From positions 67,682 to 131,681 of the forward strand of contig CAZYAF010000010.1 in the NCBI GenBank assembly GCA_964645975.1: DNA of 64,000 nucleotides, given 5' to 3'. This DNA is from an uncultured Acidobacteriota bacterium. GTDB lineage: Bacteria; Acidobacteriota; B3-B38; Guanabaribacteriales; CAZYAF01. A program made the translations under genes and the position numbers. The notes beneath the pieces were generated by a model. The model had not been told where the DNA came from. It worked only from the letters and a program-made list of their open reading frames with translations, and ran no database searches. Below, one piece after another: positions 21,370 to 47,755 of the stretch (position 1 is its first letter; each line of letters begins with the position of its first letter).

Positions 21370-22212
21370 ATGAAAATATTATTTTTTCGTAAAGTCAAAG
21401 CTTATAGAGTTTTTATCGTCGGTTTCATCATTCTATTAGGAGCCGTAGCTTTTTATTTGAGCTGCCAGTCGAAATCTCCTACCGATGCTGCCGTACCTTC
21501 GACGGAATCCCTTGCAGCCAGGGATGCGAAAGGTACCACTCAAACAACTACTTCCTCAAGCACAACGACGACGATAAAGCCATTGAGCTCAGCTTCTATC
21601 TCCACGACCATCATCACTTCGCGTAACCTGACCACTACCTCTACCACATCTACTACTACATCAACAACTTCAATTCCAGGTGCCACTACCTCAATAATTC
21701 ACCCGGCTAATGTGAAATTTTGCTATATTATTGGAGTTTATAAACTCATGTGGGATGGTGTTGGCACGCAGCGCGCAAAAGGAGTGTCAAAGGTACCAAA
21801 ACAGATAACCATTTACAATGGCGATACTGTGCACATTCCCTGGGAATATTGCTTGAGCTTAAATTTCTACGTTCATAATGTTGGTGGTTCTCCGGCAGAA
21901 AATGTTAAGATTATTCCTCTATCCGGGCTAGCAACTTCTCAAAATATTTACAGAGGAGTATCTGGTGATCCTACAATTCCTATGCCTGTACTTCCTGAGA
22001 TAGCATTTCTTGCAAATGATGGCGTATGTGTAAAGCATCCACTTAGTTCTTTTTATCAATGCAAGAAAATTCAACTAAATACAGTAACCTCTCAAACTAC
22101 TATTGCCTGTGTGGTGAACAAATTTAAGTTGGACTGGAAAGATGCGAGATGGGATTCAGAATTCAGTTTTACTCAGTGTTATGGATATCCGAATAATTCC
22201 GTTCCCCATTAG
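21370..22212 (+). CDS. Secreted/membrane-anchored mucin-like protein, paralog 1: signal-anchor, Ser/Thr-rich linker, Cys-containing CARDB-like C-terminal domain
   Basis: YLSCQSKSPTDA lipobox-like N-terminus. The TTQTTTSSSTTTTIKPL low-complexity S/T tract is conserved at the nucleotide level with paralog 2. C-terminal NVGGSPAENVKIIP motif. Confidence 0.7.
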   Translation: MKILFFRKVKAYRVFIVGFIILLGAVAFYLSCQSKSPTDAAVPSTESLAARDAKGTTQTTTSSSTTTTIKPLSSASISTTIITSRNLTTTSTTSTTTSTTSIPGATTSIIHPANVKFCYIIGVYKLMWDGVGTQRAKGVSKVPKQITIYNGDTVHIPWEYCLSLNFYVHNVGGSPAENVKIIPLSGLATSQNIYRGVSGDPTIPMPVLPEIAFLANDGVCVKHPLSSFYQCKKIQLNTVTSQTTIACVVNKFKLDWKDARWDSEFSFTQCYGYPNNSVPH

Positions 22213-22424
22213 TATTATCCTTTCTCAAGTGCAAAGGGCTCGATAGTTTGCTAAAACTTGAACAGAAACTATGAATAGTTATTCATAGCAAGCGGATATA
22301 TTCTGTTTAACTTCCGTGCGTTTTTAATGAGAAAGATGTGCTATTTTATTAGTGCATTTTAGAATAGCTTCCATCAGCAATAAAGTTTAAAATCTCCTTT
22401 TATTCATTCAAGTAACTAAGTTAG

Positions 22425-22690
22425 ATTGTGAAAAAGGGATGTTTGTGAACAGGGAAAATTTCTATAAATTTTTTCCTTCCTTGTATTATTCTTCTCTTAG
22501 GTAAGTGTAGTAGCCATCTATTTAAGCTGTACATCCAAATCTCCTGCAGATGCTACTGCACCTTGAAGTGAGACTTTGGCAGCCAAGGGTGCAAATAATA
22601 CAACACAAACAACCTCCTTAATCATCAAAACGACCACCGCACGGCCATCGAGCTCAGCAGCTACTTCCAGTTTACAATTTGTGTTCAGGT
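22425..22690 (+). pseudogene. Decayed fourth copy of the mucin-like paralog family. Start codons are mutated to GTG, there is an in-frame TGA, and the C-terminal domain is lost.
   Basis: Nucleotide similarity to the 5' regions of paralogs 2 and 3. Translation VAIYLSCTSKSPADATAP*SETLAAKGANNTTQTT matches the family. The upstream region is also paralogous. Confidence 0.65.
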
Positions 22691-22979
22691 GGTAGATTAA
22701 TCTTATCTTTGCGGTTGCTAAAATTTTATGAGCTCCAAAAAGAAAAAATATATTCATATAAATATCTTAGACACGATCTTGTTTTCGACTCAGAAGAAAG
22801 ACGCTCGGTATTATTTATTCCTGAACATTGCGAATTTATTTGTTGCAAAATATTTTTGGTACGTTCTCATATTTTTTTATGAAAAAAATATGTTATGGTG
22901 ATATAATATATTTTATATATAAATAGATTTTTAAAAAAGTGAGATAAACATTTTCAACCTTCAAGTAGGAGGGTATATT

Positions 22980-23792
22980 ATGAAGGATAATATTATTATA
23001 GGAAAGAAAAATTACAGCTATTGTATTTTATGTTTTATTCTTCTTATAGGAATTTTAGTTTTTTATTTAAGTTGTGAATCCAAATCTCCCACTGATGCTA
23101 CTGCAGCTTCAACTGAAACCCTGGCAGCCAGAGGTACGAAAGGCACTACTCAAACAACTACCTCCTCCAGCACAACGACGACGATAAAACCCTTGAACCC
23201 GGCTGCTACCGCCAGTACTATCGTCACCTCTCGAAACCTTACTACCACCACTATTGGCGTGCTACCGACGACTACTACAACAATAAGCCAATTACCTGAT
23301 GTGCAGTTTTGCGATATTATGGTACTTTATGAAAGGCGGAATTTTCCAATTCTTAATTCAAAGGGAGTTGTGCCACCAGAAGATCTGCCACATAAATTGT
23401 TTATTAAAAATGGTGGCACCATTAGGATTCCTATCCAGGGGTACTGCGTGAAAATATATGTCCGGGTTAAAAATGTTGGTGGTGCTCCGGCAAATAATGT
23501 TAAGGTTATTCCTGAAAACCTAATTAGTACAAAATATTTTGACAGGCGAGCTATGAATCATTTTGAACCTCCTGTGATTCACACCCTCCCAAATGATAGT
23601 TATTGTAGAGAGCATCCTGTTAGTAATATATTTTGGTATGGCTGTTGGGCTCGGGACGCTGGGCAAATTATAAAATCAACTATATTTTTACCAGAGTGCA
23701 TTGATATTTATTTGAAGCTGCAATGGCAGGGTGCAACGCATGAGCCAAAATTCCAATTTAAAATTTGTTTTTATTGGCCGTATGATGATTAA
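22980..23792 (+). CDS. Mucin-like secreted protein, paralog 2
   Basis: Same N-terminus and S/T linker as paralog 1 (FYLSCESKSPTDATAASTETLAARGTKGTTQTTTSSSTTTTIKPL). The C-terminal domain is diverged and retains KNVGGAPANNVKVIP. Confidence 0.7.
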   Translation: MKDNIIIGKKNYSYCILCFILLIGILVFYLSCESKSPTDATAASTETLAARGTKGTTQTTTSSSTTTTIKPLNPAATASTIVTSRNLTTTTIGVLPTTTTTISQLPDVQFCDIMVLYERRNFPILNSKGVVPPEDLPHKLFIKNGGTIRIPIQGYCVKIYVRVKNVGGAPANNVKVIPENLISTKYFDRRAMNHFEPPVIHTLPNDSYCREHPVSNIFWYGCWARDAGQIIKSTIFLPECIDIYLKLQWQGATHEPKFQFKICFYWPYDD

Positions 23793-24016
23793 TATCATCA
23801 TTTCCCAGTTGCAAAAGATTCGATAAAAAGCTAAAGCTTGAATAAGAGCCATAAATAGCTTTTCGCAGCTATTAAATATATTCTGCTTAGTTCATGTACA
23901 TTATTTAATGAAAAAAATGTGCTAACGTGGTATAATATATATTGCATCTAAGAATTGCCAACCGAAGAAATAGAAAAAAAGCCACTTTTTACTCCTCTAA
24001 GTAGTCAAATTAGATT

Positions 24017-24739
24017 ATGAAAGAGGAATATATGAACAGGCAAAATTTCCACTGGTATTTTATTCTTTGTTTTATTCTTATCTTGGCTGTTGTAGCTTTT
24101 TATGTAAGTTGTAAATCGAAGTCTCCTACAGAATCCACATCAGCATTGAATGGGCAGGTCGCAGGACAGAATGCGAATAGCACCACTCAGACCACCACCT
24201 CTTCCAGCACCACAACTACTGTCAAACCGGAAAGTTCACCTACCAACACCACCACTCTCATTACTTCCAGAAACCTGACAACTACCTCCACTTCTACATC
24301 CACCACAACCTCTATACCAACAACCACTACAACCACAAAAAGACCAACCACTACATCAATAGGAAATCCCTTGTTGAAATGGTGCTCTGTTACGATTAAT
24401 GGAATACCAAGAGGAGAAGTTTATGATATACCACCTAATTCAAAGAAATTAACTATTGGTATTTCCATTAAAAATGTTGGAACAGCTCCTGCAAAAAAAG
24501 TAGCTGCTAACCTATATATTGAAGATCCCTCGGATAATATATTTCCAGTATCTGATGGTTATGAATATCTGGGAACGATTCCGGCTGATAATAAGTGTTA
24601 TGGTTCATCATCAGCTTTTTATATGGAAGTCGTCGGCACTCCTTCGGATGACTGGTGCTGGATTCATATAGTAATAAACGTCCCCGGTTGTAAAAACTGC
24701 TCCATCGATTATTATATTTATATTGATGTAATATACTGA
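24017..24739 (+). CDS. Mucin-like secreted protein, paralog 3
   Basis: FYVSCKSKSPTES followed by an S/T tract and TSRNLTTTS. The C-terminal domain is diverged and Cys-rich, with KNVGTAPAKKVAANLYI. Confidence 0.7.
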   Translation: MKEEYMNRQNFHWYFILCFILILAVVAFYVSCKSKSPTESTSALNGQVAGQNANSTTQTTTSSSTTTTVKPESSPTNTTTLITSRNLTTTSTSTSTTTSIPTTTTTTKRPTTTSIGNPLLKWCSVTINGIPRGEVYDIPPNSKKLTIGISIKNVGTAPAKKVAANLYIEDPSDNIFPVSDGYEYLGTIPADNKCYGSSSAFYMEVVGTPSDDWCWIHIVINVPGCKNCSIDYYIYIDVIY

Positions 24740-38273: not shown

Positions 38274-39635
38274 TTGAGCTATATAGAGGCGAGTAATTAC
38301 TTGAATATATTAATTGTTAAAAAAAGAGTTATTATAAAAAATAGATTGTGCTTGTTTGTTCTCTGCATAGCAGCTGTGTTATTATCATCAATTTTTGTTT
38401 CATCAATTTTTCGAAATTTTATAGCAGACTTTTATTATCAAAAATACATAAATACTATATATAATTCAACCATCGATCAGCAATTTGAATATATCAGTAA
38501 AATGGTATCATTGAATGAGACGAATCCAGAATATCTTTATGAATTTGGGAAATTATTTTATGAAGCCAATTGGGAAAAATATCTCTATGCTAATGTTGAT
38601 TCCAGTTTAATAGGAGATAGGGATGAAAATAGATTACTCCTTCAATCCTTCCTGAAGGTGGCAGATGGCAATCCTAAATTAATACCAATTGTAGCATTAA
38701 AGGAATCAATACGCCATAATCCTCTTAATTCTGAAGTATATCTTGAATTAGCATTAATGTATGCGACTTTAGAGCATACGGAAAATATTGATCTCCTATT
38801 TAAAAGGGCAATCATAATGGACCCCTCAAATATTTTTCTCCATTACTATATTGGAATTTATTCTCTTGGGAACCAAAATTTAGAAAAAGCCTTAGATGAA
38901 TTTAGAAAGGTTTTTGTAATATCAAACTCTTCAGGCATTTTCTTGAGTAATCTATTTCTTAATATAGTAGAACGAGTGTATTTATTCAATTCTGGATATT
39001 ATACTTTAGCGAAAATAAATCCATCATCTTATAAAGCTCTTTCATCATTAGCAAACTTTTTAAGGAATAAAAACCGTTGGGGTGATAGCAAAAAAGCTTT
39101 TTATAGGAGCATCAAATTAGCTCCTACAGATAAGAAAGTTGACATAATTTATAAATTTGCAGCAGCATCGGCTTCCAACAAGGATTGGCAGGAGCTTAAT
39201 AAAATCAATGAGAAATTTAATAATTGCATCTCCGCAAATAAGGAAGTTAATAAATCATTTAATCTACTGCTTATTAGAAGTTCCTATTCTCAAAAGGATT
39301 ATGTTGAGGTATTAAAAAGAGCAGAATTATTAATTGAATCTTGTCCTTATGATTATCAACCTTATTATTATAAAGGCCTATCCTTGTTAAGGTTGGGAAG
39401 GAAAGGGGAAGGATTCTACAATTTAGAGAAAGCAGCTAAGCTTTCTCCAGAAAATATTGGTCTCCATAGAACGCTTGCTTTCTCATATGAATCAGTAAAA
39501 CAGTATGATGGAGCACTGGCTAAATGGAAGCTCGTCTTAGAATTAGCAAAAGCTAATGGGAAAAATGAAAAACAATATTCCGATGCTCTTGATAACATCG
39601 TAAGAATAAAGACAAAATTAGAAATGTCTAATTAA
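38274..39635 (+). CDS. TPR-repeat protein with N-terminal TM anchor
   Basis: TM LCLFVLCIAAVLLSSIFVSSIF. Repeated TPR-like helices with conserved Y/A/L spacing. Start uncertain. Confidence 0.5.
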   Translation: MSYIEASNYLNILIVKKRVIIKNRLCLFVLCIAAVLLSSIFVSSIFRNFIADFYYQKYINTIYNSTIDQQFEYISKMVSLNETNPEYLYEFGKLFYEANWEKYLYANVDSSLIGDRDENRLLLQSFLKVADGNPKLIPIVALKESIRHNPLNSEVYLELALMYATLEHTENIDLLFKRAIIMDPSNIFLHYYIGIYSLGNQNLEKALDEFRKVFVISNSSGIFLSNLFLNIVERVYLFNSGYYTLAKINPSSYKALSSLANFLRNKNRWGDSKKAFYRSIKLAPTDKKVDIIYKFAAASASNKDWQELNKINEKFNNCISANKEVNKSFNLLLIRSSYSQKDYVEVLKRAELLIESCPYDYQPYYYKGLSLLRLGRKGEGFYNLEKAAKLSPENIGLHRTLAFSYESVKQYDGALAKWKLVLELAKANGKNEKQYSDALDNIVRIKTKLEMSN

Positions 39636-39671
39636 ATTTAATTAAGGTATTTAAACAGTGACAGGCTCAAA

Positions 39672-40202
39672 ATGAACCAAATAGTTGACATAAAAAAGGA
39701 TGAAAATAATTTTAAATGGTATGCCATTTATACACGGAGCCGACATGAGTTTAAAGTCAACAAAGAATTATCTCGAAAGCAATTTGACACATTCCTTCCC
39801 GTAGCTAATTCTTTACGGCGCTGGAAAGATAGAAAAAAGTATATAGAAACTCCCTTATTTCCCGGTTATTTATTCATAAATTGTCAGATGGATAATTATA
39901 AACATTTAGAGATTCTGAAGACTAAAGGTGTGGTGCGAGTTTTGGGGATAAATAAAAAGGAGTTATCTACCATCCCGCATGAAGAGATAGAATCGATCAG
40001 GATATTAACCGAGAATAACGCCACCATTAACTCCCATCCCTATGTGAAAGAGGGGAGTAGCGTAGAGATAATAAGCGGACCTTTAGCTGGCGCTAAGGGG
40101 ATTTTGATCGAAAAGGACGTGTATAAATCCACCATAGTTGTATCTATTCACCTTTTAGGAAGAAGCATCTCGGTGGAAGTAGATAGCTGTGATATCAGGT
40201 AA
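39672..40202 (+). CDS. NusG-family specialised paralog (UpxY/LoaP-like transcription antiterminator), copy 1
   Basis: NGN domain KWYAIYTRSRHEFKVNKEL...FPGYLFIN. C-terminal KOW-like segment GSSVEIISGPLAGAKGILIEK. Confidence 0.75.
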   Translation: MNQIVDIKKDENNFKWYAIYTRSRHEFKVNKELSRKQFDTFLPVANSLRRWKDRKKYIETPLFPGYLFINCQMDNYKHLEILKTKGVVRVLGINKKELSTIPHEEIESIRILTENNATINSHPYVKEGSSVEIISGPLAGAKGILIEKDVYKSTIVVSIHLLGRSISVEVDSCDIR

Positions 40203-40565
40203 TAGTGTGCTAATTGCAAGGGAAATAATCCCTTTTTGATATAGTAAAGTTTGATTGAGAGATTTGTTAATTTTAGATATGAAAGAGGCCAATGTAACTA
40301 AGAGTGCGAAGCTGTGTATATTTTAAATAGAAAATAATAATTGCAGTTAAAAATTTATCTTAAAAGTAACTTAGAATGTAATTAAGTCAATTAGAACCAG
40401 ATATAAAAATTGTTGAATTTGCTCAAGAATTTGGCAAAAAATATTCTTTATACACTCTTGAAAAAAATCCAGAAGAACAACACCCCATCAATAATTTTAA
40501 TAAGAGCTTGATCTTATCCATGAAAACATCAGTAATATGCACTAATAGACTATGAGAAGACCCCA

Positions 40566-41102
40566 ATGAATTCCACGATATGCAATCAAGAATTAGATAA
40601 ATCTCTTAAATGGTATGCTATATATACCCGAAGTAGACATGAATTTAAGGTAAATCAGGAATTAGCTCGAAAGCAATTTGACACCTTTCTGCCGGCAGTT
40701 AAATCTCTGCGACGTTGGAAAGATAGAAAAAAATACATAAATATCCCTTTGTTCCCCGGATACTTATTCCTCCATTGTCAAATGGATGATCATAAATATC
40801 TAGAGATTCAGAAGACTAATGGTGTGGTAAAAGTTCTAGGGAAAAATAAAAGGGAATTGTTCTCTATTCCAGATGAAGAGATAGAATCGGTCAGGATATT
40901 AACCGAGAATAAAACAACCATTAAGCATCATCCCTATGTGAAAGAGGAAAATAGTATAGAGATAGTAAATGGTCCTTTAGCTGGAACAAAGGGAATTCTA
41001 ACAGAGAAGGACTCGCATAAATCCACCATAGTTGTAACTATACACCTTATAGTAAAAAGCATCTCATGTGAAGTTGATAATAGCGATATTGAACCTTGTT
41101 GA
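40566..41102 (+). CDS. NusG-family specialised paralog (UpxY/LoaP-like), copy 2, a tandem duplicate
   Basis: About 70% aa and about 80% nt identity to copy 1 over the NGN and KOW regions. Confidence 0.75.
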   Translation: MNSTICNQELDKSLKWYAIYTRSRHEFKVNQELARKQFDTFLPAVKSLRRWKDRKKYINIPLFPGYLFLHCQMDDHKYLEIQKTNGVVKVLGKNKRELFSIPDEEIESVRILTENKTTIKHHPYVKEENSIEIVNGPLAGTKGILTEKDSHKSTIVVTIHLIVKSISCEVDNSDIEPC

Positions 41103-41307
41103 AATGCTTATAAATAAGGTCTGTTCTGGCTGCAGAGCCAGAAGTTGATTAAACATTAAATAATATGGCTATGAAAAGGAGTTAATGCATCAGATAGGGG
41201 GAAGAGGTAAATTGATATTAAAAAGAGCGATATTCATTTGATCTCTTTTATAAACCTAAGCTTACTAATGGTAAGTTAAATATTTTAAATCTAAAGGAGA
41301 AACATAA

Positions 41308-42477
41308 ATGCTCGATGCTTTAATTGTCGGTTCAGGACCTGCTGGAAGTCATGCTGCATATCTATTAGCTAACATGGGATACGAGGTAATGCTATTAGAG
41401 GGTAAAAAGACTCCAAAGAAATTCATAAACTGCACCGGCATACTCGGCTTCGAAGCCTTTCAGAAATTCAACCTCTGGGATGTTCCTATTCTAAATCGCA
41501 TTAATAAAGTCAAATTTATATCACCACGCGGCAAAACCTTTGCCTATCATTCCGATTCAGATTTAGCTTATGTGGTAGAACGCATAGGATTTGATTCTTA
41601 TCTAATAGATAGAGCGATAAATGCAGGAGCTTCTTTTATGGACAACAGCTGGGTTAATAAGATATCAATAAATGGAGACGGAGTGAGAGCTGAAATATCC
41701 TCCAAAGACCAATCAATAAAATTAGATGCGAAGGTAGCGATTATCGCTGCCGGATTTGGTTCCCATTTAATCGAGATAGCGGGTCTTAAGAATCCTCCCG
41801 GATTCATCGAGGCTGCTCAAGCAGATGTCTATGGTTCAGGCTTTGATACAACCGAAGTATATCTTGGAAGTGAAGTTGCCCCCGGTTCTTTTGCCTGGTT
41901 TGTGCCTTTAGGAGAGGAAAGAGCCTTAGTGGGACTTACCACAAAAAAGGAGTGCACAAAGTATCTGAAGAAATTGCTAAATAAGATAAAAACTGAAAAA
42001 GATATTACAGAGACAAAAAATTTGCAATGCAGCCATCTTCCATTAGCTGTAATTCCTAAAGGATATTCTGAAAGAGTCCTTGTCGTAGGAGAAGCAGCCG
42101 GTCAGGTAAAAACCACCACTAACGGTGGTATCTACTATGGGATGATCGGTGCAGACTTTGCCGCTCAAGTTTTGCATAAAACCTTTCAGCAGAACCGCTT
42201 CGATGAAGAAATCTTAAGTAAATACGATCAACTATGGAAAGCTAAGCTTGCTCCAGAGATTAATACCGGTCTAAGACTAAGGGAATTATATTCCGGTCTA
42301 TCGGATTCTAAGATAAATCTTCTCTTAAGCATTATAAGTATGAACGGAATCATGCCGCTCATAAGGAAAAACCTCAACTTCGATTGGCACCAAGGATTAA
42401 TTTCATCCCTGATAACTAATCCTTTAATCGATCGGTTTTTTAGCTCCAAAATGCAAAGTGAAAATGTAAAACACTAA
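41308..42477 (+). CDS. FAD-dependent oxidoreductase, geranylgeranyl reductase family
   Basis: GxGxxG motif in LIVGSGPAGSHAAYLLANMGYEVMLLE. About 390 aa, typical of the GGR/FixC-like family. Confidence 0.7.
   Translation: MLDALIVGSGPAGSHAAYLLANMGYEVMLLEGKKTPKKFINCTGILGFEAFQKFNLWDVPILNRINKVKFISPRGKTFAYHSDSDLAYVVERIGFDSYLIDRAINAGASFMDNSWVNKISINGDGVRAEISSKDQSIKLDAKVAIIAAGFGSHLIEIAGLKNPPGFIEAAQADVYGSGFDTTEVYLGSEVAPGSFAWFVPLGEERALVGLTTKKECTKYLKKLLNKIKTEKDITETKNLQCSHLPLAVIPKGYSERVLVVGEAAGQVKTTTNGGIYYGMIGADFAAQVLHKTFQQNRFDEEILSKYDQLWKAKLAPEINTGLRLRELYSGLSDSKINLLLSIISMNGIMPLIRKNLNFDWHQGLISSLITNPLIDRFFSSKMQSENVKH
42266..42420 (+). repeat. Direct repeat copy A: last ~155 bp of the geranylgeranyl-reductase-family gene
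   Basis: About 80% identical to 43415-43562 (CCGGTCTAAGACTAAGGGAATTATATTCC...AACCTCAACTTCGA...TCATCCCT). Confidence 0.8.
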
Positions 42478-42573
42478 TTCACTTTACATCAATTTCAAAC
42501 ATCGATGAAGAAAACAAGAGATTTATTAGCATATAAGCAATCGTTTTCTATAGAATAATAAAGATATCGCCAA

Positions 42574-42759
42574 ATGAAGAAATTGAAGATTTTAATAATT
42601 ACTGGAATTTTTCCCCCAAATATTGATAGACCAGCAACATATGTCTCTCAGATAGTAAATTTCTTAGCAAAACATGGCCATAAAATCACTATTTTTGCTC
42701 TGAGTGAAAGTTTAGACTATGCTCATAATAGAAAAAACCGAGAAAGTGCTGTGGAATAG
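42574..42759 (+). pseudogene. N-terminal fragment (61 codons) of a GT4-family glycosyltransferase
   Basis: MKKLKILIITGIFPPNIDRPATYVSQIVNFLAKHGHKITIF is a typical GT4 N-terminal domain start. The ORF terminates after 61 aa. Confidence 0.55.
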
Positions 42760-42767
42760 CTCCAATC

Positions 42768-43394
42768 TTGCAAGAGGCAAAGATGAGTTATAATCCTGAT
42801 GTAATCCTTGAAGTTATCCCCAGCGGAACTGGATATGTTCTTGAATTAGGAGGAGCAAAAGGGATACTGCGACCATACCTTCAGGAACGCGGCTACAACT
42901 ATATTAACGTAGATATTAAATGTTTCGAGAATGGAGAACCAACGCTTATTGGTGATGCGCAAAATCTTCCTTTCAAAGATAGTGTTTTTGATATAATAGT
43001 AGGCAAGGATACCTTGGAGCATTTCATAGAACCATGGACGGTTGCCGAAGAAGCTTTTCGTATTCTGAAGCCAGGTGGATTATTCATTATATATGTGTCA
43101 TTTATGTATGGCTTTCCTGGGAACGATTTTTATCGGTATAGCTCTTTAGGTTTTCAGCACCTGTTGAAAGATTTTGAAATAGTTTTGTTAGATGGTTGCC
43201 AATGGATATTTACATTGATTGGTCAGATAGTTATTGGAGGACTTAAACAGCTTCATCTTGGATTTTTAGAACCATCTATCAAGAAGCCATGCTATTGGTT
43301 GGACAAGCTCTTTACTCGGAACCGTAAGCGTCCTGCAAATTTTGCAGCAGCTTATCGAGTTGTGGCCCGTAAACCAAGCAAGCAATCCGCATAA
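42768..43394 (+). CDS. Class I SAM-dependent methyltransferase
   Basis: Motif I VLELGGAKG. Post-I acidic residue. LKPGGLFIIYV motif. Confidence 0.7.
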   Translation: MQEAKMSYNPDVILEVIPSGTGYVLELGGAKGILRPYLQERGYNYINVDIKCFENGEPTLIGDAQNLPFKDSVFDIIVGKDTLEHFIEPWTVAEEAFRILKPGGLFIIYVSFMYGFPGNDFYRYSSLGFQHLLKDFEIVLLDGCQWIFTLIGQIVIGGLKQLHLGFLEPSIKKPCYWLDKLFTRNRKRPANFAAAYRVVARKPSKQSA

Positions 43395-43414
43395 ATATGG
43401 GAATGCTGCTCAAA

Positions 43415-43562
43415 CAGGTCTAAGGTTAAGGGAATTATATTCCCATCTAACCGATTACAAAATAAATCTCCTCTTCAGCATAATAAATATGAACGGAATT
43501 ATACCACTTATAAAGAAAACCTCAACTTCGACTGACATAGAGGATTAATATCATCCCTAATA
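43415..43562 (+). repeat. Direct repeat copy B: a degenerate duplicate of the 3' end of the geranylgeranyl-reductase-family gene
   Basis: Translation TGLRLRELYSHLTDYKINLLFSIINMNGIIPLIKK matches residues TGLRLRELYSGLSDSKINLLLSIISMNGIMPLIRK of the gene at 41308-42477. Confidence 0.8.
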
Positions 43563-43721
43563 AAAAAGCACGCTATTCAAAAATTTTTAGGTATTAAGTT
43601 TTAAAGCTTAAATAAGACCATTTGTGCTTGATTTTTTTTATTTCACAATATAGAAAGAAAAATTAAAACTTTTAATATAGAAGTGTTGGAAACTAAAGAG
43701 AGTAGATAAGGAGGCTATGAA

Positions 43722-44705
43722 ATGTCATTTTGGACAAATAAGGAAGTATTAGTAACCGGAGGAGCTGGTTTTATTGGTTCACATCTGGTTGAATTTTTAT
43801 TAGAAGAAGGGGTAAAAGTTAGCATTGCGGATAATCTGGAAAGAGGTAAATTTGAAAATTTGAGAAATGTAGAAAAAGATATTAACTTTATTAATATTGA
43901 TTTACGAGAGTTTGATAATTGTAAGAAAGCTTGCAAGGGACAAGAGGTTGTATTTAATTTAGCAGCTAAAGTTACTGGAATTGAGTATAACAGAACCCAT
44001 CAAAGGGAAATGTTTGAAAATAATATGTTACTCCAGCAGTATCCCCTAAAAGCTGCCACTGAAATGGGTGTAAATAGGTTTTGCCAGGTAAGCACTGCCT
44101 GTATCTATCCTCATGATGCCATTGTTCCAACCCCGGAAAGTGAAGGCACTCGAGGCGAACCAGAGCCGACAAATGGTGGCTATGGATGGGCAAAAAGGAT
44201 GGGCGAGAGACTAGCAGAATATTATGCGCAAGAAACAGATATGGAAATTGTAATAGTCAGACCCTTTAATGCCTATGGTTCACGAGATTATTATGATGAA
44301 AAAACCTCCCATGTAATTCCAGCACTAATAAAGAAGGTAATGGATGGAAATAACCCAGTTGTTGTGTGGGGAAGCGGAAATCAAAGTCGAGTGTTTATTA
44401 ATGCAAAGGATATTGCCAGAGGAATGATGTTGGTTACGGAAAAATATTCAAAAGTAGATCCAGTAAATTTAGGTCATAATGAAGAGATAAAAATTAAGGA
44501 TTTATTGAAAATAATTCAGGAGATGACTGGAATTCATAATGAAGTATTCTATGATACATCAAAGCCCGAGGGATACCCAAGGAGAGCTGCAGACACATCA
44601 AAATTAAAAAAGGTAACAAATGGCTTTATACCTTCCATATCATTAGAAGAAGGTATAAAAGAAATGATCAAATGGTATGAGAACCAGAAAAGCATTGGTA
44701 ACTAA
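43722..44705 (+). CDS. NAD-dependent nucleotide-sugar epimerase/dehydratase (SDR family)
   Basis: VLVTGGAGFIGSHLVEFL Rossmann motif. YxxxK catalytic region GGYGWAKRMGE. Confidence 0.75.
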   Translation: MSFWTNKEVLVTGGAGFIGSHLVEFLLEEGVKVSIADNLERGKFENLRNVEKDINFINIDLREFDNCKKACKGQEVVFNLAAKVTGIEYNRTHQREMFENNMLLQQYPLKAATEMGVNRFCQVSTACIYPHDAIVPTPESEGTRGEPEPTNGGYGWAKRMGERLAEYYAQETDMEIVIVRPFNAYGSRDYYDEKTSHVIPALIKKVMDGNNPVVVWGSGNQSRVFINAKDIARGMMLVTEKYSKVDPVNLGHNEEIKIKDLLKIIQEMTGIHNEVFYDTSKPEGYPRRAADTSKLKKVTNGFIPSISLEEGIKEMIKWYENQKSIGN

Positions 44706-44718
44706 AATAGCAGATTTT
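44583..44718 (+). repeat. Direct repeat copy A: last ~135 bp of the epimerase gene
   Basis: About 88% identical to 45982-46116. Confidence 0.8.
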
Positions 44719-44895
44719 TGTGGGTTCAAAGGAAAAATAATTCAGGATACCAGCAAGCCTGATGGGCAACCGAGAAGAGGGCTTGATACTTATTGAGCCG
44801 AAAAGGAATTCGGCTTTAGATCCGGGATAAATTTTGATGAAGGTCTAAAAAAGACAATTAATTGGTGCAGAAAATATAGAAATCAACTAAGTTAA
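44711..44895 (+). pseudogene. 3' remnant of a GDP-L-fucose-synthase-like (fcl-type) epimerase/reductase with an in-frame TGA
   Basis: Translation [57 protein letters not shown] matches fcl C-termini (DTSKPDGTPRKLLD...LGW...EGL). Confidence 0.55.
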
Positions 44896-44975
44896 TCTAA
44901 GAAAGTTTCATTCCATCTTTTAACAGTTAGTATTATTCCTTCTGTTTAATTGAATGAGGAAAAGCTTTCAATTGT

Positions 44976-45962
44976 ATGAGTTCAAAAGATCAGAGACTTA
45001 AGCTAATATGCCCAAATTGCCATGCTGACTTAAGCGAGCAGAAAGGTTTATTTTTATTTTGTAATACATGCATGAATAAATATCCTATTATAAAAAGAAT
45101 TCCTTCATTTATAGAAAAAGAAAAAACTTACGGCGGAGGTCAGGGACAATTTAATCAACTTTTTAAAGGAAAACTTGTAGAAGAAAAAAATTTAATAATA
45201 AAATTATATAACAAAATTTCGTGTTCCCAAAATAGAATTGCTTTCATTAAAAAACATTTAAAGAAATATTCTGGTTCAAAAATATTAGATATAGGATGTG
45301 GGGGAGGGGGATTAGCCTTTTTATATAAAAAGTACTCAAATATATTAATAGGATTAGATGTTAGTTTAGATTCGTTAATGCAGGCGAGAAAATTTGATAT
45401 ATATGATTTATTAATTCATTCCTCAATTGAAAGCAATCCATTTCCTGAAAATTATTTTGATGTAATTGTTAGTTCAGATGTATTAGGGCATACTTTTTTA
45501 AAAACAAAAGAAGAAGCATATCATGAAATGTGGAGAATTCTAAAACCCCAAGGTGCGATGATTCATGTTATCGAAACAGATAGCACAAACTTTTGGATTA
45601 GAATTGCTAAGAAAAACCCACAATTATATAAAACAAACCATATAGATAAACATGGCCATATAGGAATGGAATTGCCTAGCATTATTATAAAAAGATGCAA
45701 AAAAATCGGTTTTAAAATTATTGATACTTCTAAAATACATGCTATTATTCTGCCGCCAGAAGTTATAATTTCTTGGTTTGATGGAGATTTTGATCGACCT
45801 TTTTTTATAGATTTTTTTCTATATTTTTCAAAAATTACCTGTTCAAGCAAATATTTTAATTTCTTAATAAATTTTATTCTTGGCATGATTGAAAAACCTC
45901 TAAATAAAATTATACCTATCGACTGGACCACAGGGCTTTTGCTTTGTGCTCAAAAAAAGTAA
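44976..45962 (+). CDS. SAM-dependent methyltransferase with an N-terminal Trm112-like zinc-ribbon
   Basis: CPNCHADL...CNTC four-Cys ribbon. Motif I LDIGCGGGGLAF. Confidence 0.65.
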   Translation: MSSKDQRLKLICPNCHADLSEQKGLFLFCNTCMNKYPIIKRIPSFIEKEKTYGGGQGQFNQLFKGKLVEEKNLIIKLYNKISCSQNRIAFIKKHLKKYSGSKILDIGCGGGGLAFLYKKYSNILIGLDVSLDSLMQARKFDIYDLLIHSSIESNPFPENYFDVIVSSDVLGHTFLKTKEEAYHEMWRILKPQGAMIHVIETDSTNFWIRIAKKNPQLYKTNHIDKHGHIGMELPSIIIKRCKKIGFKIIDTSKIHAIILPPEVIISWFDGDFDRPFFIDFFLYFSKITCSSKYFNFLINFILGMIEKPLNKIIPIDWTTGLLLCAQKK

Positions 45963-45981
45963 TCCTGAAAGCTATCTCATA

Positions 45982-46116
45982 AGAGCTGCTGATACATCAA
46001 AATTAAAGAAAGTAACAAATGGTTTTATTCCTTCCATAGCTTTAGAAGAAGGTCTAAAAGAAATGATCAAATGGTATGAAAACCAGAAAAGCATTGGTAA
46101 TCAAAATAGCTGATTT
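45982..46116 (+). repeat. Direct repeat copy B: duplicate of the epimerase 3' end
   Basis: Translation SKLKKVTNGFIPSIALEEGLKEMIKWYENQKSIGN matches the C-terminus of the gene at 43722-44705. Confidence 0.8.
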
Positions 46117-46171
46117 ATATAAATTAAAATTAAAAATTTTCAGTATTAGAATTTTATGCCATTGGTTTTAA

Positions 46172-47755
46172 ATGAATAAAGCAGGTGAAGGACATAAGGT
46201 ATTAGTATTAAATGACAAAGAGCCTAAGGAAACTTTAGAACAGCTAACTAAACAAATTGCCAAAGGAGGGAGTATTGCTTCTATTGGCAGCATGATCGGA
46301 AAAGCTCTTGGCTTTGGATTGCATATTCTATTGGGAAGGATACTGGGACCTGCACAATATGGGCTTTATGCGTTGGGGCGTAGCGTGATGGGTATTACCC
46401 AATCTATAGCTACTTTAGGTTTGAACCAAGGAGTCGTTCGATATGGAGCAATATACCGTGGTGAGAGGGATAATGCTCGAGTGAAAGGAACAATTCTTTC
46501 CGCACTTGGGATTTCTATGGTCTTCAGCATTCTTATTAGCGCTTTATTGGTCCTCTTCTCCAGTTTCATCGCTCAGAGGATCTTTAAAGAGCCTGAACTT
46601 ATAAAGGTGCTTCAGGTCCTTGCTTTAGCGCTTCCCTTCTATGTGCTTATGGGTATAACAACCTCATTTGCGCAGTCGTTCCGAAGAATTTGGTATCAGC
46701 AAGGAGTTCTAAAAATCTTTAACCCAATAGTCCACTTTCTCTTGGTTGGAATAGCCTTCCTACTTGGTTTTCGACTTGCTGGCGCAGTCTATGGATTTTT
46801 GATTTCTGGAGTACTTAGTGCCGGTTTGGGATTTTATTTCTTATGGAAGATCTTTCCCGAGGTTAAGTCGCTTCTTGCACCATCATATAATATTAGGCAG
46901 TTGCTTTTCTTTTCCCTTCCGACTTTTTTCATTGGCATTTCATATTTATTACTGAATTATACTGATCGAATAATGCTGGGATATTTTAGAGCAGCCAGCG
47001 ATGTAGGTATTTATAGCGCCGCATCTACTACATCTTTACAAATGGCTATATTTTTAGCTGCTTTTATCACAATTTTCTCACCCATAGTATCTAATTTATA
47101 CAATCAAGCAAAACGTAAAGAATTGGAAAATTTGTTCAAGGTTGTAACCAGATGGGTATTTACCTTAACACTACCACTATTTATTATAATAGCGATATTC
47201 TCAAAAAGCATTATGCTCATATTCGGTTCAGAGTTTGTAGCAGGTTGGATAGTATTAATTATTCTTGCCTTTGCTCAGCTGGTCAATGTTGGGACAGGCC
47301 CAGTTGGTATGCTGCTGCAAATGACAGGTAAACAATATATTGATTTCGCCAATGGATGGGGACTTTTTCTTTGCAACATTGGCTTAAATTTGTGGTTAAT
47401 CCCAATTTATGGTGCTTTAGGAGCAGCATTAGCAACTGGAATATCCTTGATGCTCATTCATATAGCAAGGTTGGTGGAAGTTTTAAAAATCTTATATATA
47501 ACTCCTTATGATAAGCGCTTTATTAAGCCAATTTTAGCCGGACTTATTATGGCAATAGGAGCCATATTTTTTAAATTAATTATTCGAAGCTTTACAAGCT
47601 GGATTTGGATTTTTTTAGGTTTAAGTCTTTTGGTGATTGTTTACATTGCAATCCTTTATGCAATAGGCTTAGATCAGGAGGATAAGATTGTATTGTCGGC
47701 AGTTAAGAGAAAGCTTTTAAAGACAAATTTTAGTTTATTTCGACAAAAGCTTTAG
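46172..47755 (+). CDS. Oligosaccharide flippase (Wzx, MOP superfamily polysaccharide biosynthesis protein)
   Basis: About 12-14 TM helices. Typical polysacc_synt N-terminal region. Size fits the family. Confidence 0.7.
   Translation: MNKAGEGHKVLVLNDKEPKETLEQLTKQIAKGGSIASIGSMIGKALGFGLHILLGRILGPAQYGLYALGRSVMGITQSIATLGLNQGVVRYGAIYRGERDNARVKGTILSALGISMVFSILISALLVLFSSFIAQRIFKEPELIKVLQVLALALPFYVLMGITTSFAQSFRRIWYQQGVLKIFNPIVHFLLVGIAFLLGFRLAGAVYGFLISGVLSAGLGFYFLWKIFPEVKSLLAPSYNIRQLLFFSLPTFFIGISYLLLNYTDRIMLGYFRAASDVGIYSAASTTSLQMAIFLAAFITIFSPIVSNLYNQAKRKELENLFKVVTRWVFTLTLPLFIIIAIFSKSIMLIFGSEFVAGWIVLIILAFAQLVNVGTGPVGMLLQMTGKQYIDFANGWGLFLCNIGLNLWLIPIYGALGAALATGISLMLIHIARLVEVLKILYITPYDKRFIKPILAGLIMAIGAIFFKLIIRSFTSWIWIFLGLSLLVIVYIAILYAIGLDQEDKIVLSAVKRKLLKTNFSLFRQKL

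What the first reader, a model, noticed from the sequence alone, without database searches (positions are those of the whole stretch)
42266..43562. Methyltransferase cassette 1 bracketed by direct repeats of the 3' end of the upstream gene
The last ~155 bp of the geranylgeranyl-reductase-family gene (42266-42420) recur at 43415-43562 at about 80% identity. The duplicate even translates to the same peptide, TGLRLRELYS(G/H)L(S/T)D(S/Y)KINLL(L/F)SII(S/N)MNGI(M/I)PLI(R/K)K. Between the two copies sit a truncated GT4 N-terminal fragment (42574-42759) and an intact SAM methyltransferase (42768-43394). This looks like a gene cassette swapped into the polysaccharide locus by recombination that left a duplicated gene-end scar. 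The divergence between the copies argues for allelic or homeologous donor DNA rather than a recent tandem duplication.
Basis: seen in the sequence. Interest (0 to 1): 0.7.

Follow-up and report, generated by a model that had tools for sequence, protein, structure and literature searches.

The report
Recombination scar around a methyltransferase gene
A small methyltransferase gene was spliced into a sugar-coat (polysaccharide) gene cluster of an uncultured sediment bacterium by recombination with a related but different strain, leaving a dead copy of the neighbouring gene's end; this is a real but fairly ordinary footprint of how such clusters are reshuffled.

Summary
The repeat is real: 42265-42415 recurs at 43414-43563, 82% identical, BLAST E 2e-35. 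Copy B is a dead 3' end of a second allele of the GGR-family oxidoreductase gene. It holds about 62 codons and its own stop, plus a 1-nt deletion and a TGG-to-TGA change. Between the copies lie a GT4 glycosyltransferase stub and an intact class I SAM methyltransferase. Six independent assemblies carry the identical arrangement.

Two relatives (L023, L024; epimerase 92% identical) show the empty site, with an intact GGR end followed after about 50 nt by the epimerase. Differences between the copies sit mostly at third codon positions (5/5/17; dN/dS 0.12), as between functional orthologues. So the copies come from two diverged alleles, not from a local duplication that decayed.

The same scar type recurs. 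It brackets the second methyltransferase in this window (44583-44748 and 45982-46146) and appears in relatives L009, L020 and L023. Sequences downstream of the remnants differ between lineages, and identity breaks inside the remnants, which implies later crossovers there.

The best reading is one-sided homologous recombination, either homology-facilitated illegitimate recombination or single-crossover insertion of a circle. No recombinase or shared boundary motif was found. This is a new member of a known kind, of modest interest.

The parts
39672..40202 (+). NusG-like gene 1, resident-type copy
   Evidence: Pfam NusG E 4.9e-23. Window 38643-40313 is 86.5% identical to L016, which carries the TPR gene and this NusG type.
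40566..41102 (+). NusG-like gene 2, an intact homeologous duplicate of gene 1
   Evidence: 78.9% identical to NusG1 over 474 nt. Its 3' end is 91.7% identical to L014 against 80.8% for NusG1. It therefore belongs to the same lineage block as GGR copy A.
41194..41238 (+). Stub of an initiating sugar transferase gene (Bac_transf), first ~14 codons
   Evidence: tblastn with the full L014 gene gives 15 aa at 67% identity (weak on its own, E 0.066); window/L014 homology stops at 41228 and resumes at 41287.
41308..42477 (+). Intact GGR-family FAD-dependent oxidoreductase gene (389 aa)
   Evidence: Pfam FAD_binding_3 5.3e-10 and GGR_cat 29.1 bits against a cut-off of 27. Homologues at 83, 77 and 76% aa identity.
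42265..42415 (+). Repeat copy A, codons 320-370 of the intact GGR gene
42574..42759 (+). N-terminal stub (61 aa) of a GT4 glycosyltransferase gene
   Evidence: Matches residues 1-50 of 360-400-aa proteins; the five tested carry Glyco_transf_4 plus Glycos_transf_1. Same 61-aa ORF in L014 (82% aa). Mostly deleted in L016.
42783..43394 (+). Intact class I SAM-dependent methyltransferase 1 (203 aa; alternative TTG start at 42768)
   Evidence: Pfam Methyltransf_11 2.4e-14. Full-length alignment with homologues, including a native C-terminus. 97-100% nt identity to L016.
43414..43604 (+). Remnant B, the dead 3' end (~62 codons plus stop) of a second GGR allele; repeat copy B is 43414-43563
   Evidence: 82% identical to copy A. 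Carries a 1-nt deletion and an in-frame TGA. tblastn matches GGR homologues to their last residue. dN/dS 0.12 against copy A. It starts at most about 15-19 nt after the methyltransferase stop.
43722..44705 (+). Intact NAD-dependent sugar epimerase/dehydratase gene (327 aa)
   Evidence: Pfam Epimerase 1.3e-58. In L023 and L024 it directly follows GGR.
44583..44748 (+). Repeat copy C, the last 123 nt of the epimerase gene plus 43 nt downstream
   Evidence: 85.5% identical to 45982-46146, E 5.8e-48 (alignment).
44689..44895 (+). Remnant E, an older and more diverged 3' remnant of an epimerase-family gene with an in-frame stop; it abuts the epimerase stop codon
   Evidence: tblastn aligns epimerase residues 259-324 at 40.6% aa, E 1e-8. 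Translation. Also present after the epimerase in L023 and L024. Best match is the remnant in L020.
44976..45962 (+). Intact class I SAM-dependent methyltransferase 2 (328 aa), 27.9% GC
   Evidence: Pfam Methyltransf_11 5.8e-17. 84% aa homologue at the same place in L023. GC content.
45958..46146 (+). Remnant D, the 3' end (48 codons) of a second epimerase allele plus the first ~43 nt of remnant E; it abuts the methyltransferase 2 stop
   Evidence: 87.5% aa identity to epimerase residues 280-327. Differences by codon position are 2/0/9, dN/dS 0.04. The stop codon is changed to CAA.
46172..47755 (+). Wzx-type polysaccharide flippase gene, first gene downstream of the second scar
   Evidence: Pfam Polysacc_synt 1.6e-29.

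Best explanation
The repeat is a recombination scar in a mosaic polysaccharide-biosynthesis locus of an uncultured bacterium. Its nearest genome-resolved relatives are candidate division B38 and Aminicenantes.

Shown: relatives exist in which the GGR-family oxidoreductase gene is directly followed by the epimerase gene. In the window that junction is split by about 1 kb, made of a GT4 stub and methyltransferase 1. The intact GGR gene sits on the left. A truncated, inactivated GGR 3' end from a different allele sits on the right, starting at most about 19 nt behind the methyltransferase stop codon.

Inferred mechanism: DNA from a homeologous locus that carried GGR, the GT4 stub and the methyltransferase recombined with a locus that carried GGR followed by the epimerase. 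One crossover was homologous, inside or upstream of GGR. The other join was non-homologous, linking the end of the methyltransferase gene to a point about 62 codons before the end of the resident GGR gene. This is homology-facilitated illegitimate recombination. An equivalent route is a single crossover by a small circle carrying a GGR-end fragment plus the cargo. Either route keeps a complete GGR gene, adds the cargo, and shunts the other GGR end downstream as a silent remnant.

The same process explains three further features: the methyltransferase 2 scar (epimerase-end copies C and D), the intact NusG-like duplicate, and the analogous scars in relatives.

Also inferred: once formed, the remnants served as homology patches. 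Later homologous crossovers with other strains' intact GGR or epimerase genes exchanged everything downstream while trapping the methyltransferase. That would also explain why the remnants still look like recently functional sequence. The copies share perfect matches of only 17 and 25 nt, so they are poor substrates for deletion, and the insert is stable.
For: - Repeat significance: 82% over 151 nt, E 2e-35.
- Real arrangement: six assemblies are 100% identical across both junctions.
- Empty site: L024 and L023 have an intact GGR end, about 50 nt of spacer, then the epimerase (92% aa).
- Donor-like arrangement: L014 is collinear with window 40976-41228 (92%) and 41287-43324 (88%), covering NusG, GGR, the GT4 stub and methyltransferase 1.
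- Homeologous origin: A/B differences by codon position are 5/5/17 (p 0.005), dN/dS 0.12. C/D differences are 2/0/9 (p 0.002), dN/dS 0.04. Functional orthologue pairs give 0.08-0.23. Copy B is as far from copy A (83%) as GGR genes of separate lineages are from each other (79-85%).
- Crossover inside remnant B: window 42777-43470 is 97-100% identical to L016, although the two GGR genes are only about 80% identical. Identity then falls to 55% within the remnant. Downstream genes differ: epimerase in the window, a phosphodiesterase-type gene in L018.
- Second scar behaves the same way: window 43665-45964 is collinear with L023 (86%) up to about 8 nt past the methyltransferase 2 stop. Both then carry an epimerase-family 3' remnant that starts at the same homologous position. 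The remnants are of different sequence, and different genes follow them.
- Recurrence in relatives: L009 has a GGR 5' remnant, then a 324-aa methyltransferase, then full GGR (160-nt repeat, 80.6%). L020 has the epimerase, a DegT aminotransferase, a 66-aa ORF, then an epimerase 3' remnant (repeat 86%).
- No site-specific machinery: no recombinase domain in the neighbourhood, no motif shared by the two inserts, no Rfam match.
- Published precedents for both mechanisms exist: PMC5361080 and PMC2935791.
Against: - The non-homologous junction cannot be checked for microhomology. No relative shows the native sequence downstream of methyltransferase 1, and L014 becomes a probable chimera 70 nt before the gene's end.
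- The position of the homologous crossover inside GGR copy A cannot be pinned down, because GGR is itself mosaic among lineages.
- Polarity is unresolved. The empty site in L023 and L024 could be a secondary loss through recombination between the repeats.
- Most remnants are 150-200 nt long, and three of them start within about 20 nt of the preceding stop codon. Random illegitimate joins do not predict that regularity. Some of these cases probably share one ancestral junction, so the number of independent events is smaller than the number of scars.
- All relatives are metagenome contigs, several of them short.
Confidence: 0.7

Rival explanations
1. Campbell-type insertion of a small, recombinase-independent circular cassette. 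Recombination between the two repeat copies would excise a circle of 1.1-1.4 kb, carrying one gene-end fragment plus the methyltransferase. After transfer, that circle would re-insert by a single homologous crossover into any related GGR or epimerase gene and recreate the bracketed structure. Under this view the gene-end fragment is a targeting arm that travels with the cargo.
For: - The structure is exactly what a single crossover with a circle produces. Repeat periods are similar: 1149 nt, 1399 nt, and 1216 nt in L009.
- Remnants have a similar length of 150-200 nt and abut the cargo gene's stop codon.
- Methyltransferase 1 plus the first half of remnant B is nearly identical in the window and L016, although their GGR genes are about 80% identical.
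- The same model was proposed for Rhs tips (PMC2935791).
Against: - No circular form and no second insertion site of the same cassette was seen.
- Methyltransferase 1 is always found next to GGR, with the same junction, in every lineage sampled. That fits one ancient event followed by ordinary recombination.
- The repeats share perfect matches of only 17 and 25 nt, so excision should be very rare.
- The near-identical tract ends in the middle of the remnant rather than at its edge.
Confidence: 0.15
2. In-situ partial tandem duplication of the GGR 3' region, or decay of a full second paralogue. The spare copy would then diverge neutrally and be eroded by deletions. The methyltransferase would simply lie between the two copies.
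For: - The repeats are direct and close together.
- Copy B carries a frameshift and a stop codon, so it is decaying now.
- An intact tandem duplicate of the NusG-like gene lies just upstream.
Against: - Substitutions between the copies are concentrated at third codon positions. dN/dS is 0.12 for A/B and 0.04 for C/D, the same as between functional orthologues. Almost all of the divergence therefore arose while both copies were under purifying selection.
- Copy B is no closer to copy A than to GGR genes of other lineages.
- NusG1 and NusG2 each match a different relative best: L016 at 86.5% and L014 at 91.7%.
- No relative has a full-length second GGR.
Confidence: 0.07
3. Footprint of a degraded integrative element that targeted the 3' end of GGR by site-specific recombination and supplied a replacement gene end, as phage 21 and e14 do at icd. 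Remnant B would be the displaced original end (attR).
For: - A replacement gene end plus a displaced original end of about 150-190 nt at moderate identity is the classic signature of such elements (from general knowledge, not tested here).
- Methyltransferase 2 has a deviant GC content of 27.9%.
Against: - No integrase, transposase or other recombinase domain occurs in any gene from about 31 kb to 64 kb of the window, or in the related loci.
- The insert is only about 1 kb.
- Four different targets are involved: the GGR 3' end, the GGR 5' end, and epimerase 3' ends at two positions. No boundary motif is shared.
- The longest identical core is 17 nt and lies in the middle of the repeat rather than at its edge.
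Confidence: 0.05
4. Assembly artefact: a chimeric or collapsed metagenome contig that joins reads from two co-occurring strains.
For: - The copies differ by an amount typical of co-occurring strains.
- One related contig, L014, does look chimeric.
Against: - Two JGI assemblies and four Logan assemblies of separate runs give 100% identical sequence across both junctions.
- The L016, L018 and L019 lineage, from three further samples, carries the same methyltransferase-remnant junction.
Confidence: 0.02

Closest known systems
Homology-facilitated illegitimate recombination, as invoked for sequential displacement of effector genes in Vibrio cholerae type VI secretion clusters (Kirchberger et al. 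2017, PMC5361080)
   Same: - A conserved upstream gene serves as the homologous anchor.
- New genes are added without homology at the other end.
- The former occupant is shifted downstream rather than deleted. That paper notes a shifted-back 3' end of an effector gene.
- Once formed, the arrays are passed around by ordinary homologous recombination.
   Different: - Here the locus makes a polysaccharide, not toxins.
- The cargo is a decorating enzyme rather than an effector-immunity pair.
- The retained downstream piece is a non-functional gene end, not a selected immunity gene.
- The microhomology expected at the illegitimate junction could not be examined.
C-terminal displacement in rhs genes through a circular intermediate (Jackson et al. 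2009, PMC2935791)
   Same: - An intact gene is followed by dissociated 3' fragments of the same gene.
- The fragments begin with conserved sequence of variable length.
- The proposed route is excision as a circle and re-insertion by a single homologous crossover.
- Exchange is limited to related sequences.
   Different: - In rhs the incoming piece is a new C-terminal toxin domain of the same protein, and core fragments within a locus are identical.
- Here the protein end is merely a diverged allele of the same sequence (82-86% nt).
- The novelty lies in a separate gene carried behind that end.
Gene remnants at segment junctions in mosaic O-antigen and capsule gene clusters of Enterobacteriaceae and other bacteria (reviewed for E. 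coli in PMC7685785 and for Salmonella in PMC3715488; found, not read in detail)
   Same: - Conserved flanking genes and a variable centre.
- Low-GC variable genes.
- Exchange of blocks between strains.
- Leftover gene fragments at junctions.
   Different: - These loci belong to an uncultured sediment lineage with a different conserved core (NusG-like, sugar transferase, GGR-family reductase, Wzy_C, TPR).
- The scars are repeatedly short gene ends that bracket one- or two-gene inserts.
Integrative elements that insert into the 3' end of a protein-coding gene and bring a replacement end (for example phage 21 and e14 at icd; recalled from general knowledge, not tested here)
   Same: - A complete gene is kept by a substitute 3' end.
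- The displaced original end, of roughly 150-200 nt at moderate identity, lies at the far side of the insert.
   Different: - No integrase is present.
- The insert is only about 1 kb.
- No shared core or boundary motif was found.
- Several different target positions are used.

Membership tests
Product of homology-facilitated illegitimate recombination | Gain of DNA that is absent from an otherwise collinear relative (the empty site) | tested here: met
   L024 and L023 have GGR directly followed by the epimerase. The window has about 1 kb more plus the remnant.
Product of homology-facilitated illegitimate recombination | One end of the incoming DNA joined within homologous (anchor) sequence | tested here: inconclusive
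   GGR copy A and the insert are collinear with L014 (88-92%). GGR is mosaic among lineages, and no single breakpoint could be fixed.
Product of homology-facilitated illegitimate recombination | Other end joined without homology, typically at a microhomology of a few bases | not testable with these tools
   The parental sequence downstream of methyltransferase 1 is not available, because L014 turns chimeric at 43324. The junction lies at 43395-43413.
Rhs-type C-terminal displacement | Intact gene followed downstream by a dissociated 3' fragment of the same gene, in the same orientation | tested here: met
   Remnant B follows GGR. Remnants E and D follow the epimerase.
Rhs-type C-terminal displacement | Attached and displaced ends encode different, non-homologous C-terminal domains, each with a cognate downstream gene | tested here: not met
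   Copies A and B encode the same sequence with 8 amino-acid differences in 48 codons. The cargo is an unrelated methyltransferase gene.
Integrase-mediated island inserted in a gene's 3' end | Tyrosine or serine recombinase gene within or next to the insert | tested here: not met
   No such Pfam domain occurs in any neighbouring gene of the window or of loci L001-L024.
Integrase-mediated island inserted in a gene's 3' end | Identical core sequence at the inner edge of both repeats | tested here: not met
   The longest perfect match is 17 nt and lies inside the repeat. The repeat edges are not identical.
Integron gene cassette | attC recombination site at the cassette end and an intI gene with attI nearby | tested here: not met
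   There is no shared motif or inverted repeat at the two insert ends, no Rfam match, and no integrase.
In-situ tandem duplication with neutral decay | Substitutions between the copies spread evenly over codon positions (dN/dS near 0.5-1 on the spare copy) | tested here: not met
   A/B counts are 5/5/17 with dN/dS 0.12. C/D counts are 2/0/9 with dN/dS 0.04. Chi-square p is 0.005 and 0.002.
Class I SAM-dependent methyltransferase (cargo gene 42783-43394) | Methyltransf_11-type Rossmann domain above the Pfam threshold, at full length relative to homologues | tested here: met
   54.1 bits against a cut-off of 21.2. It aligns end to end with homologues of 200-216 aa. Substrate and activity are not testable here.
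Geranylgeranyl reductase family (gene 41308-42477) | FAD-binding Rossmann domain plus the GGR catalytic domain | tested here: met
   FAD_binding_3 at 39.5 bits (cut-off 22) and GGR_cat at 29.1 bits (cut-off 27). The substrate is unknown.

The most novel reading that the evidence does not exclude
The 150-200-nt gene-end fragments may be more than passive scars. They could be the targeting arms of recombinase-independent, homology-guided gene cassettes. Each would consist of one arm plus one decorating-enzyme gene. It would excise as a circle of about 1.1-1.4 kb and re-insert by a single crossover behind any related GGR or epimerase gene. That would give this uncultured clade a general, integron-like way to add and shuffle polysaccharide-modifying genes inside operons without disrupting the conserved genes.
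Probability: 0.1. Interest if true: 0.6.

Novelty: new member of a known kind. Interest (0 to 1): 0.3.

Why it matters
The window gives a clean, multiply documented example of how single decorating-enzyme genes are added to a polysaccharide operon without breaking the conserved genes. The gene end is duplicated in homeologous form, and the spare copy stays behind.

The spare copy then seems to act as a landing pad for later exchanges of the downstream block. This extends a process described for toxin loci (rhs, type VI effector-immunity arrays) to ordinary biosynthetic genes in an uncultured sediment lineage.

In practice, such remnants are useful markers of segment boundaries and recombination history in metagenome-assembled surface-polysaccharide loci. 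They also warn annotators against calling the 55-68-aa ORFs at these sites as genes. The finding does not reveal a new molecular machine.

Tried and rejected
- A scan of metagenome contigs with the epimerase found nothing. A second scan with the flippase found only 54% relatives, which say nothing about an epimerase-flippase empty site.
- The genome-contig scan with GGR gave only 66-68% relatives with a different gene order. These were useful for the L009 scar but not for the empty site.
- An exact look-up of the 208-aa TTG-start methyltransferase found nothing, because the called gene starts at the ATG.
- I suspected a Bac_transf remnant downstream of NusG1. tblastn found none there, only the 14-codon stub upstream of GGR.
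- tblastn extended the GGR match back to 43336, over the methyltransferase's last codons. I judged this a spurious gapped extension, because only 'LW' is shared.
- L014 was considered as the donor parent for a microhomology analysis. It was rejected because its sequence beyond 2884 jumps to 52% GC and gives the methyltransferase an aberrant C-terminus.
- The promoter and terminator scan showed nothing notable in the remnants. Promoter-like sites were fewer than in shuffles, so the idea that remnants persist because they hold the downstream gene's promoter has no support.
- A search for motifs shared by the two inserts and an Rfam scan were both negative.
- The listing of cluster members gave no organism names.
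Full report
**1. The observation**

A self-comparison of the window finds 42265-42415 matching 43414-43563 at 82.1% identity over 151 nt, E 1.8e-35. Copy A lies inside the intact 389-aa GGR-family FAD oxidoreductase gene (41308-42477). Pfam gives FAD_binding_3 and GGR_cat above threshold. Copy A covers codons 320-370.

Copy B is a pseudogene fragment. It has a 1-nt deletion near 43515 and a TGG-to-TGA change at 43533-43535. After frame correction it reads on to its own stop at 43602-43604 (..HRGLISSLIKKHAIQKFLGIKF*). That tail resembles the C-termini of GGR homologues. Remnant B is therefore the whole last ~62 codons of a second GGR gene, followed by its own intergenic region and the epimerase gene (43722-44705).

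Between the copies lie two features:
- a 61-aa ORF that matches residues 1-50 of 360-400-aa proteins, of which the five tested by Pfam are GT4 glycosyltransferases;
- an intact class I SAM methyltransferase (42783-43394; Pfam Methyltransf_11), whose C-terminus aligns with nine homologues.

Two JGI assemblies and four Logan assemblies are 100% identical to the window across both junctions. The arrangement is not an assembly artefact.

**2. The same kind of scar occurs again in the window**

- The last 123 nt of the epimerase gene plus 43 nt downstream (44583-44748) recur at 45982-46146 (85.5%, E 6e-48). This pair brackets a second, unrelated methyltransferase (44976-45962).
- At protein level remnant D begins at about 45958 and so abuts the methyltransferase 2 stop codon.
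- Directly behind the epimerase stop lies a third, older epimerase-family 3' remnant, E (44689-44895). It is 40% aa identical to epimerase residues 259-324 and has an in-frame stop.
- Upstream, two intact NusG-like genes are 79% identical.
- A 14-codon stub of an initiating sugar transferase gene lies before GGR.

**3. Relatives**

| Locus | Relation to window | Arrangement |
|---|---|---|
| L014 | GGR 83% aa | Collinear with window 40976-41228 (92%) and 41287-43324 (88%): NusG, full sugar transferase, GGR, the same 61-aa GT4 stub, methyltransferase 1. Beyond that point it jumps from 37.5% to 52% GC and gives the methyltransferase an aberrant end, so it is probably chimeric. |
| L016, L018, L019 | three further samples; GGR 77% aa | TPR, NusG of the NusG1 type (86.5%), GGR (about 80% nt), methyltransferase 1, GGR remnant, then a phosphodiesterase-type gene instead of the epimerase. 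|
| L023, L024 | epimerase 92% aa | Empty site: an in-frame, intact GGR 3' end, about 50 nt of spacer, then the epimerase. |
| L010, L017, L015, L007-L009 | more distant | No methyltransferase 1 and a different gene order. |

Window 42777-43470 is 97-100% identical to L016, and identity then decays to about 55% inside the remnant. L016's remnant is still in frame, and its 3' half resembles L017's GGR. L016 lacks most of the GT4 stub through a 240-nt deletion between imperfect short repeats.

**4. Origin of the second copy**

Differences between copies A and B fall at codon positions 1/2/3 as 5/5/17 (chi-square p 0.005), with dN/dS 0.12. For copies C and D the counts are 2/0/9 (p 0.002), with dN/dS 0.04. 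Functional GGR orthologue pairs over the same segment give 0.08-0.23.

Copy B is as distant from copy A (83%) as GGR genes of separate lineages are from each other (79-85%). The remnants therefore diverged from the intact copies while both were functional genes, that is, as alleles in different lineages. They were truncated only recently relative to that divergence. This argues against in-situ duplication followed by neutral decay.

**5. Recurrence and behaviour of the remnants**

- L009 (an Aminicenantes genome) has the mirror image. A sugar-transferase-end plus GGR 5' remnant is followed by a 324-aa methyltransferase and then the full GGR gene. The repeat is 160 nt at 80.6%.
- L020 has the epimerase, a DegT aminotransferase, a 66-aa ORF, and then an epimerase 3' remnant (repeat 86%).
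- L023 shares epimerase, remnant E and methyltransferase 2 with the window (86%) up to about 8 nt past the stop codon. It then carries an epimerase-family remnant that starts at the same homologous position. That remnant has a different sequence and is followed by different genes.

Two points follow. The methyltransferase-remnant junctions look like single old events. Sequences to the right of each remnant have since been exchanged, with breakpoints inside the remnants. The remnants thus appear to act as homology patches for later crossovers with other strains' intact genes.

**6. Mechanism**

The structure is an intact gene with one allele's end, then cargo, then the truncated end of another allele, then the latter's native downstream DNA. 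Two routes produce exactly this:
- one homologous crossover plus one non-homologous join, as proposed for type VI effector-immunity arrays (PMC5361080);
- a single crossover with a small circle carrying a gene-end fragment plus cargo, as proposed for rhs tips (PMC2935791).

The NusG duplicate fits a mirror-image event anchored on the right. NusG1 and the TPR gene match L016 best, whereas NusG2 and GGR copy A match L014 best. Identity to L016 jumps to 97-100% from about 42777.

I could not distinguish the two routes. The parental sequence needed to look for microhomology at 43395-43413 is missing. The regular remnant length (150-200 nt) and their abutment to the preceding stop codon remain only partly explained. 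Some cases probably share ancestry.

Nothing points to site-specific recombination. No recombinase domain occurs in the window's locus or in related loci (and the locus tables). The two inserts share no motif, and there is no Rfam hit. The longest perfect matches between copies are 17 and 25 nt. By general knowledge of RecA-dependent recombination, that makes deletion of the inserts inefficient.

**7. Verdict**

- the insert is part of a larger homeologous block rather than an autonomous cassette;
- the event is old and shared with another lineage;
- the remnants have been reused as crossover sites.

This is a new member of a known kind, namely recombination scars and gene-end displacement in mosaic surface-polysaccharide loci. 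It is of modest interest, mainly because the pattern recurs with one- or two-gene inserts of sugar-modifying enzymes (mostly methyltransferases) across an uncultured clade.

Noticed in passing
window 44583-44748 and 45982-46146 (cargo 44976-45962): A second methyltransferase is bracketed in the same way, by an 85.5% repeat of the epimerase gene's 3' end plus 43 nt downstream. Remnant D abuts the methyltransferase stop, and its own stop codon is changed to CAA.
   Followed up: yes
window 44689-44895: An older, more diverged epimerase-family 3' remnant with an in-frame stop sits directly behind the intact epimerase stop codon. It is also present in L023 and L024, and its best match is the remnant in L020. 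How a remnant came to lie tandem to the intact end with no cargo between them is not explained.
   Followed up: partly
window 39672-40202 and 40566-41102: Two intact NusG-like genes are 79% identical in DNA. Each is closest to a different relative: NusG1 to L016 and NusG2 to L014. Relatives whose contigs cover this region have only one copy. This probably reflects a whole-gene overlap scar of the same recombination process.
   Followed up: partly
window 41194-41238: Only the first ~14 codons of the initiating sugar transferase gene (Bac_transf) remain between NusG2 and GGR. L014 has the full gene there and L010 a 67-aa stub. No Bac_transf domain was found among the window's ORFs that were scanned.
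   Followed up: partly
L009 3926-5301: This is the mirror-image case in an Aminicenantes genome. A remnant of the sugar-transferase end plus the GGR 5' end is followed by a 324-aa methyltransferase and then the full GGR gene. The direct repeat is 160 nt at 80.6%.
   Followed up: yes
L020 2274-4502: A DegT-type aminotransferase and a 66-aa ORF are bracketed by the epimerase 3' end and an 86% remnant of it (residues 258-325).
   Followed up: partly
L014 2884-3491: The contig switches from 37.5% to 51.7% GC inside the methyltransferase's 3' end and gives it an aberrant Cys/Arg/His-rich C-terminus. It is probably a chimeric assembly.
   Followed up: partly
L016 2940-2960, against window 42478-42717: L016 lacks 240 nt, including most of the GT4 stub. 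The deletion lies between imperfect short repeats, AGTGAAAATGTAAAACACTA and AGTGAAAGTTTAGACTA.
   Followed up: partly
window 21370-24739: Three tandem paralogous genes of 240-280 aa sit here, with an N-terminal remnant of the same family at 22471-22671. They are unrelated to the finding.
   Followed up: no
window 41308-42477 and loci L007-L018: A GGR-family FAD oxidoreductase is a conserved core gene of this locus type, next to the NusG-like gene, the sugar transferase, Wzy_C and TPR genes. This holds across Aminicenantes, candidate division B38 and the window's lineage. It may act on the polyprenyl carrier lipid, but that was not tested.
   Followed up: no
window 44976-46146: Methyltransferase 2 and remnant D have 27-28% GC, against 36-40% for the neighbouring genes.
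   Followed up: no
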